From: Octopus vulgaris
Taxonomy: Eukaryota
Assembly (NCBI GenBank): GCA_951406725.2
Contig: OX597820.1
Span: 91,140,001 to 91,204,000, forward strand
DNA: 64,000 nt
Reading direction: 5' to 3'
Positions within the stretch are counted from its first letter, which is position 1. Each line of letters opens with the position of its first letter. The translations under genes were made by a program, and so were the position numbers. Under the pieces are notes generated by a model. It was given only the letters and a program-made list of their open reading frames with translations. It made no database searches and was not told the DNA's origin. Shown one piece after another: positions 10,555-47,961 of the stretch.

Positions 10555-10850
10555 CTTCCAGACTTAGTTTCGGTGATTTGGGTTGGTTTTCTTCAGAACC
10601 ACATAGCAACAGACATCTCAATACTTTGTCGTCTCCATGAAGTTCTAAGTCCTAAGATCAGCCATCATTCCTTCATTTCATATTTTCCTTGGTCTCCGTC
10701 TTTCACAAACTCCAGCCACTTTAAAGGATCAGAGCTACTTTATACAGTTGTCTTCCAATAAGCATCATATGTCCATAACAGCACAATTTTCTTTCTTGCA
10801 CACTACATATGAATCCTCTTATGTCCAGTTTTTCTTTCAGCACATTTATA
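10555..10850 (-). mobile_element. RTE-clade LINE 3' fragment, decayed
   Basis: Reverse complement (CTGAAAGAAAAACTGGACATAAGAGG..GTGTGCAAGAAAGA..TATGGACAT) aligns by eye with the RTE fragment at about 18975-19140. Confidence 0.65.
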
Positions 10851-10959: not shown

Positions 10960-11248
10960 ACAAAATTCTATACAATATTTACAATTGATGGATATTTGTC
11001 CTCATCTTGTTTGTCATCAACATGTTTCGGCTGATATACTCTCCAGCCGTCATCAGGTGTCATGGAGAAATTTTCTAAACTGGGTTCTCATTTCTAAGGT
11101 ATTTTTCGATGTTGTTATCATTATTCAGGTCACTGCCTGGAATCAAACTCGGAATCTTGGGGTTAGTAGCCTGCACTCTTAACCACTATGCCCTATCTGT
11201 CACTTGTAAATAATGTACATAATTCTTCATCTCTTAAATATAGAACTG
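10960..11248 (-). mobile_element. tRNA-headed element carrying a hammerhead motif and an inverted terminal copy
   Basis: Minus strand: tRNA-like head 11195-11128 (GGGCATAGTGGTTAAGAGTGCAGGCTACTAACCCC..GAGTTTGATTCCAGG), then hammerhead 11061-11013, then a tail shared with 47821-47910. Segment 11205-11248 is an inverted copy of the family's tail end. Confidence 0.6.
11013..11061 (-). ncRNA. Minimal type I hammerhead ribozyme motif
   Basis: GACAC-CTGATGA-C-GGCTG(GAGAGTATAT)CAGCC-GAAA-CATGTT. Stem I 3' strand is degraded here, but the sister copy at 47900-47904 reads GTGTC on the minus strand, a perfect complement. Confidence 0.6.
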
Positions 11249-18675: not shown

Positions 18676-19655
18676 AAGTAGTCGATAGCATCCATTACCT
18701 AGGTGACCAAGTCAGTGGCAGAGTGGATGCTCTGAGAGTGTAGCTGCTAGAATAAGAATAGTCTGAGCAAAGTTCAGAGGAGAACTACCTCTGTTGGTAA
18801 CAAAGGACCTCTTGCTCAGAGTGTAAGGTAGAGTGTATGATGCCTGTGTGCAAACTGCAGTGCTACAAAGCAGTGAAACATGGGCTATGACATGTATAGA
18901 CTTGAAAGAAATGAAGCTAGGATGCTCTGCTGGATGTGTAATGTCAGTGTGTATACACGACAGAGTGTAAGCGCCCTGAGAGAAAAATTGGACATTAGAA
19001 GAAGCCTCAGATGTGGTGTGCAAGAGAGATGACTGTGCTGGTATTGACATGTGTTGTGTATGGATAAGGACAGCTGTGTGAAGAAGTGTTACACCCTAAC
19101 TGTGGAGAGAACCTGTGGAAGAGGTAGACCCAGGAAGACGTGTGATGAGGTAGGGAAGCATGACCTTTGAATGTTGGGCAAGACAAATGAGATCATAGCC
19201 ATGGCTGATGTCAGTATCACATAACTGGCACCTTTAAAAGTACCCCTTCAATTGTCATACGATATTTTGTGCTTGAGAAGACCTGTTGAGCCAAGTGAAA
19301 TCATAGTCATGGTCGATGCCAGTGCCACCTGACTGGCCCCCATACTGGTGCCATGTAAAAATCACCAGTCAATCATGGCCAATGCCAGTGTCACCTAACT
19401 AGCTCCCGTGCCAGTGGCATGGTAAAAGCACCATTCGAGTATCGCCAATACCATTGCCGCCTGATTGGCACCTGTACTGGTGGCACAACAAAAGCACCCA
19501 ATACACTCTAGGAAGGGCATTCAACTGTAGAAACCTTGCCAGATCAGATTGGAGCCTAGTGCAGCATCCTGGCTTGCCAGTCCTCAGCCACACCGTCCAG
19601 CCCATGGCAGCATGGAAAGTGGACGTTAAACGATGATGATAATGATGATGATGAT
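18676..19655 (+). mobile_element. RTE-clade LINE, 5'-truncated (C-terminal ORF remnant, 3'UTR, (GAT)n tail)
   Basis: With frameshifts it translates to VVDS..YLGDQV..CSESVAARIRI.., ELPLLVTK.L.LRV.GRVYDACV.TAVL.SSETWA, then GRGRPRKT. Ends ACGTTAAACGATGATGAT. Confidence 0.85.
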
Positions 19656-40161: not shown

Positions 40162-41350
40162 TATGGTTTCCCAGCCATCCGCTTCAAAGCGTGTAAGCAT
40201 GCCCTGGCAAAACCCCTCAAGATTCTCTTCCAGAGCTTTCTTGCGAATGGCTAACTGCCAAGCAAGCTGAAGGAGGGAATAATATGCCCAATACATAAAT
40301 GGGGAAGTAGAGCAGATGCCAGAAACTATAGGCCTATCTCTCTGACTTCACACATCAGCAAAGTCATGGAAAGGATAGTCAGAAAGAAACTAATCGCATT
40401 CCTTGAGGAAAATAACTTGCTGAGTGATACCCAGCATGGTTTTCAACCAGGTAGGAACTGCCTGACCCAGCTCTTACAACATTATGACTGGGTGTTGAGG
40501 CAGTTACTCAACAAATCAAATGTGGACGTAATCTACCTTGATTTTGCAAAAGCTTTTGACAAGGTGGATCATGGTATGATATGCCACAAACTGCGTGACC
40601 TCAGCATAGCTGGAAAACTTGGAGTGTGGTTAAAGTGCACATTACCAGGATGGCGACAAAATGCAGACGACTGGCTGGGTGGATTCTAAGAACATTCAGA
40701 ACCAGAGATAAGGAAACCATGATGGTCCTCTGGCGGACATTCGTCCTCAGCCACCTGGATTACTGCTCACAGCTATGGTCACCCACCAGTGTAAAATTAA
40801 CAGCAGACCTTGAAGCAATCCAGAGAAGAGTCACAAAGAAGATCATCCCTTTGCAACAGCTCAGCTACTGGGAAAGGTTGAAACAGCTGAGACTCTACTC
40901 CCTGGAGAGAAGACGGGAGAGGTATGCAGTAATATATGGCTGGAAGATCCTGGAAGGAATTGTGCCAAATTTTGGCATTGTATGCTACACCAATGCTAGA
41001 ATGGGATGACACTGCATAGTGCCAAAGATCCCAGCAATGCCATCACGCTTCAGGACCAGCTTCTGCAACAGCCTGGGTTTCAAAGGCCCACAGCTTTTTA
41101 ATATTCTCCCAAAGAGTCTGAGGAACTTGCACAAAGTAGATGTAGCGGTTTTTAAATCAAAGCTGGACATCTTCCTGTCAAGAGTCCCAGATGAACCTAC
41201 CTCACGGCAAGAGGTGCAAATGAGAGTAGCTATATCAAACTCCATTCTTCACCAAGTGTCACATATTAGACGAGGTTCGTCATAATAACAGTGTAGCACA
41301 AAACAGCGGTGCATCAGCATGGCTGCAGCTCTGAGCTGAAACTAGAAAAA
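40162..41350 (+). mobile_element. CR1-clade LINE, 5'-truncated with internal RT deletion
   Basis: Motifs PIHK.GSRADARNYRPISLTSHISKVMERIV, QHGF.PGR.CLTQL, DVIYLDFAKAFDKV.H, LDYCSQLWSP, LEAIQRR.TK.I and LSYWERLKQLRLYSLERRR. The GVPQGS and YADD core is absent at the junction near 40632. Confidence 0.9.
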
Positions 41351-47820: not shown

Positions 47821-47961
47821 CAGTTCTATATTTAAGAGATGAGGAATTATATACATTATTTACATTCGATAGATATTTGTCCTCATCTTGTTTGTTGTTG
47901 ACACAACGTTGTTGTTAACAACAAACAAGATGAGAGCAAACATCCATCAAATGTAAATAAT
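47821..47961. repeat. Fold-back remnant of the 10960-11248 family
   Basis: Inverted arms 47855-47907 / 47908-47961, centred on AACGTT. Confidence 0.75.

What the first reader, a model, noticed from the sequence alone, without database searches (positions are those of the whole stretch)
10960..11248. Candidate SINE combining a tRNA-derived Pol III head with a hammerhead ribozyme and PLE-style inverted end
Seen on the minus strand, in order: an inverted copy of the family's 3' end (11248-11205); a tRNA-like head with A box TAGTGGTTAA, loop CTACTAA (tRNA-Ser-like) and B box GTTTGATTCC; about 65 nt of spacer; a minimal hammerhead (CTGATGA, GGCTG/CAGCC stem II, GAAACATGTT palindrome); and a tail shared with 47821-47910. 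No poly(A) or simple-repeat tail and no TSD are visible. Established: typical SINEs borrow LINE 3' ends, and Pol III plus hammerhead repeats are known only rarely (for example schistosome Sm-alpha). Inference: a Pol III-transcribed, self-cleaving SINE mobilised by a Penelope-like element rather than a LINE, possibly undescribed in cephalopods.
Basis: partly seen in the sequence, partly recalled or inferred. Interest (0 to 1): 0.8.

Follow-up and report, generated by a model that had tools for sequence, protein, structure and literature searches.

The report
Penelope retrotransposon with a tRNA head
This repeat is the end piece of a Penelope-type jumping gene that carries a tRNA-like promoter sequence and a hammerhead ribozyme motif, and thousands of short copies begin at the tRNA start, so the element likely makes SINE-like offspring from a borrowed tRNA promoter, an arrangement we did not find described.

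Summary
Head, hammerhead motif and tail form one dispersed unit (3,293 exact head 24-mers, 10,112 3' 24-mers in the genome). The unit is the terminal repeat (pLTR) of a Penelope/Poseidon-type element: its RT + GIY-YIG frame stops about 30 nt before the tRNA-like head, and the 'spacer', hammerhead and tail encode the start of that same protein. Head-to-head pairs carry the ~32-nt tail at exactly one end in 63 of 73 cases, the Penelope hallmark. Copy numbers jump five-fold at tRNA +1, and 70 of 90 head-bearing copies begin there, which points to a transcript start at the tRNA, likely Pol III (A and B boxes are canonical in near-consensus copies). No sequence variant is private to the short copies, so an independent SINE lineage is not shown; most are likely solo pLTRs primed inside the element's own RNA. 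Corrections: head is Arg-like rather than Ser-like (tentative); the window copy has lost the cleavage triplet and has one mismatch in each box, so it is a dead copy and 11019 is not the cut site. Pol III use and self-cleavage are untested.

The parts
11194..11248 (+). Inverted, 5'-truncated copy of the repeat's 3' end, carrying the ~32-nt Penelope 'tail' (about 11217-11248)
   Evidence: BLASTN to natural copies L142/L105, 89% over 55 nt
11126..11196 (-). tRNA-derived head (Arg-like, tentative); first 3-4 nt missing; A box 11193-11183 and B box 11148-11140, one mismatch each in this copy
11111..11125 (-). (AAT)n tract between head and coding start; length varies from a few to hundreds of bases in other copies
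10970..11091 (-). Decayed start of the Penelope ORF (ATG at 11091); overlaps the hammerhead; broken in this copy; ends before the tail
11019..11061 (-). Minimal type I hammerhead motif: helix I 5' strand 11061-11057, core 11056-11050, helix II 11048-11044/11033-11029, GAAAC 11028-11024; 3-nt loss of the cleavage triplet between 11024 and 11023
47821..47910 (-). Second insertion: 3' fragment with tail (one arm of a head-to-head pair)
   Evidence: 92% over 90 nt to L105
47905..47961 (+). Second insertion: other arm, without tail; the arms meet in the hammerhead helix III palindrome

Best explanation
The window element is a decayed solo terminal repeat (pLTR) of a Penelope/Poseidon-type retrotransposon whose pLTR begins with a tRNA-derived sequence, and the element's RNA likely starts at that tRNA sequence, likely by RNA polymerase III. 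Shown: monomer order is tRNA head - (AAT)n - ATG - hammerhead motif - tail - rest of ORF (RT, GIY-YIG) - stop - ~30 nt - next head; thousands of copies begin at the head; ends fall at two sites ~32 nt apart. Inferred, by analogy with the anole Poseidon element in vitro (PMC11167929): the RT-endonuclease nicks AT-rich DNA and starts reverse transcription inside the RNA at either of two sites 120-155 nt into the ORF. Priming at the first pLTR of a transcript that began at the tRNA gives a 230-260-nt head-to-tail copy that looks like a SINE; priming at the last pLTR gives ORF-bearing, 5'-truncated copies; two primings give the head-to-head pair with one tail, as in the window. The template is mostly uncut RNA, because copies run through the hammerhead; the minimal ribozyme would need a dimer or protein help. 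Short copies are probably mostly dead ends, since they lack ORF sequence beyond the tail.
For: Partner: 28 of 30 loci found with the family's endonuclease or RT region have the repeat right after the ORF end (25 of 27 distinct places); L111 holds a 569-aa open frame with RT (PF00078, 27.7 bits, just under the 29.6 cut-off), and the C-terminus is 38% identical to the GIY-YIG-bearing end of P0069. Coding overlap: L142's body/hammerhead translates to a peptide matching the N-terminus of an 847-aa homologue (12 of 20 identical), and L202, L217, L300, L317, L322 continue from the tail into the ORF. Tail at exactly one end in 63 of 73 head-to-head pairs. Step at tRNA +1: exact 24-mers 680 (endonuclease region), 638 (just upstream), 3,293 (head; two degenerate positions); 70 of 90 head-selected copies have no ORF-side homology beyond noise, 20 run on; in a 3'-selected sample 16 of the 20 copies that reach the head stop at -19..+5, against about 16% expected, P 7e-10. 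A and B boxes sit at canonical tRNA positions in L142. ORF-bearing copies also start there: 2 of the 3 that reach the head among 40 examined (L352, L354). 21 of those 40 end within 100 nt of the ORF motif, so short copies can come from RNA that runs past the tail. The three main haplotypes occur in both short (111) and ORF-linked (30) units and no fixed difference exists.
Against: No direct test of Pol III. Rfam/ARAGORN do not call the head a tRNA. RNA-seq of a related label (3 raw runs, 6% of each) shows both directions equally and no start or end peak. The ORF-head junction is itself a hairpin (-6.2 to -6.8 kcal/mol), and palindromes at pLTR 5' ends are known in Penelopes with Pol II-type motifs (PMC3846280), so the step could be a reverse-transcription stop. 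Haplotype proportions differ between short and ORF-linked units (P 0.049), which leaves room for short masters. No intact full-length ORF was found among the 150 best hits of either query (longest open frame 569 aa). Clade placement rests on domain order and the missing linker zinc finger, not on a tree with named references.
Confidence: 0.68

Rival explanations
1. True Penelope-dependent SINE: short copies are Pol III-transcribed masters that propagate on their own using the element's protein in trans.
For: Five-fold excess of copies that begin at the head; canonical boxes; one haplotype is richer in short copies (57 of 90 vs 8 of 21; P 0.049); trans mobilisation by pLTR sequence is reported (PMC3846280 passages).
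Against: No variant private to short copies; the anole element needs ORF sequence beyond the priming sites (first 172 nt), which short copies lack; not exclusive of the best explanation.
Confidence: 0.3
2. The tRNA head is a passenger in the pLTR; the element is transcribed by Pol II (read-through of tandems), and the pile-up of 5' ends is a stop or fold-back of reverse transcription at the junction hairpin.
For: Junction hairpin; the commonest joint in RNA reads is the fold-back at head +1 (265, 177, 214 reads); pLTR 5' palindromes and self-priming described in rotifer Penelopes; Kojima argues protein-coding partners must use Pol II.
Against: The stronger hammerhead helix II (-8.1) and an internal hairpin (-3.5) show no pile-up (3 of 74 ends at positions 136-170, 5 of 74 at 112-119); the boundary coincides with tRNA position 1; boxes are intact in near-consensus copies.
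Confidence: 0.22
3. The tRNA segment is an independent insertion at this locus, or the tail is a LINE 3' end.
For: None found.
Against: Unit conserved in 30 of 30 best hits for head-to-3' part; tail is the Penelope ORF start.
Confidence: 0.01

Closest known systems
Poseidon_Ac (PAc) of Anolis carolinensis, Penelope/Poseidon clade (PMC11167929, parts 1-2 of 4 read)
   Same: RT + C-terminal GIY-YIG; pLTR overlaps ORF start; hammerhead cut site inside the coding start; two 3' ends bounding an optional tail; no RNA ends seen at the cut site.
   Different: No tRNA-derived head is mentioned in the parts read; here the pLTR begins with a tRNA sequence and most head-bearing copies start there.
Schistosome Sm-alpha / Sj-alpha (via review PMC6765202 passages; primary paper not held)
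   Same: Pol III-type promoter followed by a type I hammerhead in a short repeat.
   Different: Sm-alpha is described as often tandem with an active ribozyme freeing monomers and no named Penelope partner; here copies are dispersed or inverted, the motif is minimal, and the repeat is the pLTR of a coding element.
Animal non-LTR retrozymes (PMC7229834 passages; bioRxiv 10.64898/2026.07.22.740005 parts 1-3 of 5)
   Same: Non-coding, hammerhead-bearing, pLTR-related, proposed Penelope-mobilised.
   Different: Defined by tandem arrays and circular RNAs; no tRNA promoter in the text read; here monomers and head-to-head pairs dominate.
TRIMp3: Cassandra, Helenus, Ajax (PMC10886601 passages)
   Same: Small-RNA-derived Pol III promoter inside a terminal repeat.
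   Different: Those are non-coding LTR elements whose partners do not share the promoter; here the coding element itself carries it, and it is a Penelope.
Octopus tRNA SINEs OK, OR1, OR2 (Ohshima and Okada 1994; not held; names partly recalled)
   Same: Possibly the same host group; OR families recalled as Arg-derived.
   Different: OR1 or OR2 is cited as a CORE-SINE; this body is coding sequence. Identity with one of the three could not be checked.

Membership tests
EN+ Penelope-like element (Penelope/Poseidon) | Single ORF with RT and C-terminal GIY-YIG endonuclease | tested here: met
   L111 569-aa frame, RT PF00078 E 2.7e-6 (under cut-off); C-terminus 38% identical to GIY-YIG end of P0069; Pfam GIY-YIG itself does not hit the decayed copies
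EN+ Penelope-like element (Penelope/Poseidon) | pLTR formed by partial tandem, overlapping the ORF start | tested here: met
   L202: ORF end - repeat - ORF start
EN+ Penelope-like element (Penelope/Poseidon) | Inverted 5'-truncated copy and a 30-40-bp tail at one end | tested here: met
   63 of 73 pairs; window 11194-11248; L111
EN+ Penelope-like element (Penelope/Poseidon) | RT phylogeny within Penelope/Poseidon; no linker zinc finger | tested here: inconclusive
   No CxxC linker by eye in L111, present in the genome's other families; no named reference set, no tree
Minimal type I hammerhead of PLEs | Core, unpaired base before helix II, 4-5-bp helix I, palindromic helix III, NUH triplet (family) | tested here: met
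   Alignment, fold of L142, criteria from PMC4209133
Minimal type I hammerhead of PLEs | Same features in the window copy | tested here: not met
   3-nt loss at the triplet, helix I not formed
Minimal type I hammerhead of PLEs | Self-cleavage (dimer or protein-assisted) | not testable with these tools
   No RNA end peak; such libraries would rarely show one
tRNA-derived SINE (SINE2) | 5' tRNA-derived head with A and B boxes; copies begin at the tRNA start | tested here: met
tRNA-derived SINE (SINE2) | Pol III transcription | not testable with these tools
   Inferred from boxes and 5' ends only
tRNA-derived SINE (SINE2) | LINE-derived 3' end with poly(A) or simple-repeat tail | tested here: not met
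   3' end is Penelope coding start, fixed at two sites
tRNA-derived SINE (SINE2) | Self-propagating lineage separate from the partner | tested here: inconclusive
   No fixed difference, shared haplotypes, skewed proportions
tRNA-derived SINE (SINE2) | Target-site duplications | not tested
   None evident at the window copy by eye; no systematic count made
Non-LTR retrozyme | Tandem arrays of hammerhead-bearing monomers | tested here: not met
   Sampled loci are monomers, head-to-head pairs or partial tandems; no genome-wide array search

The most novel reading that the evidence does not exclude
A protein-coding retrotransposon runs on a captured tRNA promoter: Pol III transcribes the whole ~2.6-kb Penelope RNA (the family's sense strand has no shared run of four T), and the same RNA yields both full elements and tens of thousands of SINE-like copies by internal priming.
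Probability: 0.25. Interest if true: 0.85.

Novelty: new variant of a known kind. Interest (0 to 1): 0.63.

Why it matters
It gives a route to SINE-like repeats that needs no LINE: a Penelope element that took a tRNA into its terminal repeat. It ties a tRNA-headed hammerhead repeat to a named partner by shared sequence, which suggests re-examining Sm-alpha and the many unclassified cephalopod SINEs. How Penelopes start their RNA is little known; here the likely start is marked by thousands of copy ends and can be tested with a Pol III assay. Automated annotation will split this one element into SINE, Penelope and unknown.

Tried and rejected
Rfam and ARAGORN: no tRNA or hammerhead call. Pfam GIY-YIG search of the genome returned other Penelope families (Neptune-like, some young with 781-aa frames) whose 3' ends do not match the repeat; rejected as partners. 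An excess of copies starting at the hammerhead cut site: not seen (5 of 74 at positions 171-190). A separate SINE with this head and another body: not seen; in 16 short-ending copies the tract is interrupted by other repeats, in several the body resumes further on. Subfamily diagnostics: none fixed (4 duplicate loci dropped). Terminator-depletion test: suggestive only (G4 runs also absent; L111 alone has 3, as expected by chance). Sequencing runs: no RNA holder listed in the index; raw reads gave no start/end peaks and no strand bias. Earlier scan findings: none. Literature searches listed no paper on a tRNA-headed Penelope or a Penelope-mobilised tRNA SINE; Repbase, Dfam, SINEBase entries and the Zenodo library of PMC13282606 could not be searched, and three papers were not held (Ohshima and Okada 1994, Albertin 2015, Ferbeyre 1998). 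The bioRxiv preprint's supplements were not seen and cover no mollusc by its methods.

Full report
Observation. The minus strand at 11248-10970 reads, in order: inverted 3'-end copy, tRNA-like head, (AAT)n, body, hammerhead motif, 3' part. The only other member in the window is the head-to-head pair at 47821-47961. A genome search gave 5,587 candidates, 40 scored; the 30 best loci align over head, body, hammerhead and 3' part. Exact motifs occur 2,676, 3,293 and 10,112 times, with 0 for reversed controls. With about 5% mean divergence among exact-match-selected copies (biased low) this implies roughly 10-15 thousand head-bearing and 35-55 thousand 3' copies (my estimate). Words of L142 are held by runs of five organism labels.

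The window copy. It is 86% identical to near-consensus copy L142. Its A and B boxes each have one mismatch, whereas L142 has both at canonical tRNA positions. Best tRNA matches are Arg(TCG) 61.5 and Arg(TCT) 59.5, then Cys 58, among 35 sequences from 30 loci covering few isotypes, so Arg is tentative. Rfam and ARAGORN call nothing.

The partner. A Pfam GIY-YIG search found other Penelope families with unrelated 3' ends. Among 30 loci chosen only by the hammerhead core, seven (L049, L050, L053-L057, L060 counted by BLAST: eight rows, some segmental duplicates) had endonuclease-coding DNA directly before the head. Searching with that natural frame gave 4,980 candidates; the 150 scored are 76-100% identical and mostly broken. 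In 28 of 30 loci examined (25 of 27 distinct places) the repeat follows the ORF end. L111 has a 569-aa frame with RT and many full-length relatives elsewhere at 38-68%; the C-terminus aligns with the GIY-YIG end of P0069.

The repeat is the pLTR. An 847-aa homologue begins with the peptide encoded by the hammerhead region, and five loci continue from the tail into the ORF; L202 shows ORF end, repeat, ORF start in tandem. 3' ends fall at two sites, without and with the tail (40 and 30 of 74), and 63 of 73 head-to-head pairs have the tail at exactly one end. These match the Penelope structure in PMC8557442 (passages) and PMC3846280 (passages), and the two internal priming sites shown in vitro in PMC11167929 (parts 1-2 of 4), where uncut RNA was the main substrate and the ribozyme needed protein.

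Where the RNA starts. Exact 24-mer counts are flat over 170 nt of ORF end (680, 638) and rise to 3,293 at the head (the head pattern has two degenerate positions). Of 90 head-selected loci (the first 90 of 3,293), 70 begin at the head and 20 run into the ORF; 4 were duplicates. Of 74 3'-selected matches, 20 reach the head and 16 stop at -19..+5 (P 7e-10 against the unit's own truncation rate). Of 40 of 107 ORF-start copies, 3 reach the head and 2 begin there. The junction is a hairpin, but a stronger one in the hammerhead gives no pile-up. RNA-seq reads (3 runs, one study, label B) cover both directions equally, double in depth at the head, show the head fold-back as the commonest joint and give no start or end peak; they show presence in RNA only.

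Independent SINE or by-product. Among 111 short and 30 ORF-linked units there is no fixed difference; three haplotypes occur in both, in different proportions. 21 of 40 ORF-start copies end within 100 nt past the motif, so short insertions can come from ORF-bearing RNA. I therefore favour solo pLTRs from the element's own transcripts, with some short masters possible.

Pol III over the whole element. Column-wise majority shows no run of four T in about 2,500 columns, about 2.3 expected; pooled copies have 18 in 51,664 bases; other Penelope ORFs have 1-9 each; but G runs are also absent and L111 alone has 3. Suggestive only. Kojima (PMC10886601, passages) holds that coding partners must use Pol II, which is why this would be surprising.

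Novelty. Ten searches listed nothing on a tRNA-headed Penelope. The 2026 octopus repeat annotation (PMC13282606, parts 1-2 of 3 and supplement search) reports many unclassified SINEs and 190 Penelope families and does not mention hammerheads in what I read. Repeat libraries and Ohshima and Okada 1994 could not be checked, so the sequence may already carry a name. Verdict: real, new variant of a known kind; the structure is shown, the promoter and cleavage are inferred.

Noticed in passing
window 11024-11023; family-wide: A 3-nt loss at the hammerhead triplet is the commonest true deletion in the repeat (24 of 160 copies) and occurs on both haplotype backgrounds. It could be slippage in a micro-repeat or a scar of reverse transcriptase jumping across a cut RNA (untested).
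   Followed up: partly
family hammerhead core, L142 about 1645: The one polymorphic core site is position 7, the free position of the hammerhead, as expected if masters were selected for the core.
   Followed up: partly
L083, L085, L087 (G000:C6, C5): A young Neptune-like Penelope family with intact 781-residue frames, about 99% identical copies, and a second ~479-residue frame upstream; its hammerhead looks degenerate.
   Followed up: no
L052, L059, L188; L051, L135, L159, L199: The (AAT)n tract is a landing site for other elements: a restriction-like-endonuclease non-LTR element (Dong/R4-like, label recalled) and a second unnamed repeat.
   Followed up: no
junction before the head, L140, L201: The 12 bases before the head in the coding element are a degenerate inverted copy of the head's start, likely a relic of the fold-back that joined the tRNA to the element.
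   Followed up: partly
window 40255-41006: Two frames of a CR1/L2-like LINE reverse transcriptase (label by eye).
   Followed up: no
P0006 cluster: A relative at 53% identity is annotated in the barnacle Amphibalanus amphitrite; close relatives across phyla may reflect horizontal transfer.
   Followed up: no
window 10736-10841 and 18976-19086: Two diverged copies (74%) of another repeat next to the element.
   Followed up: no
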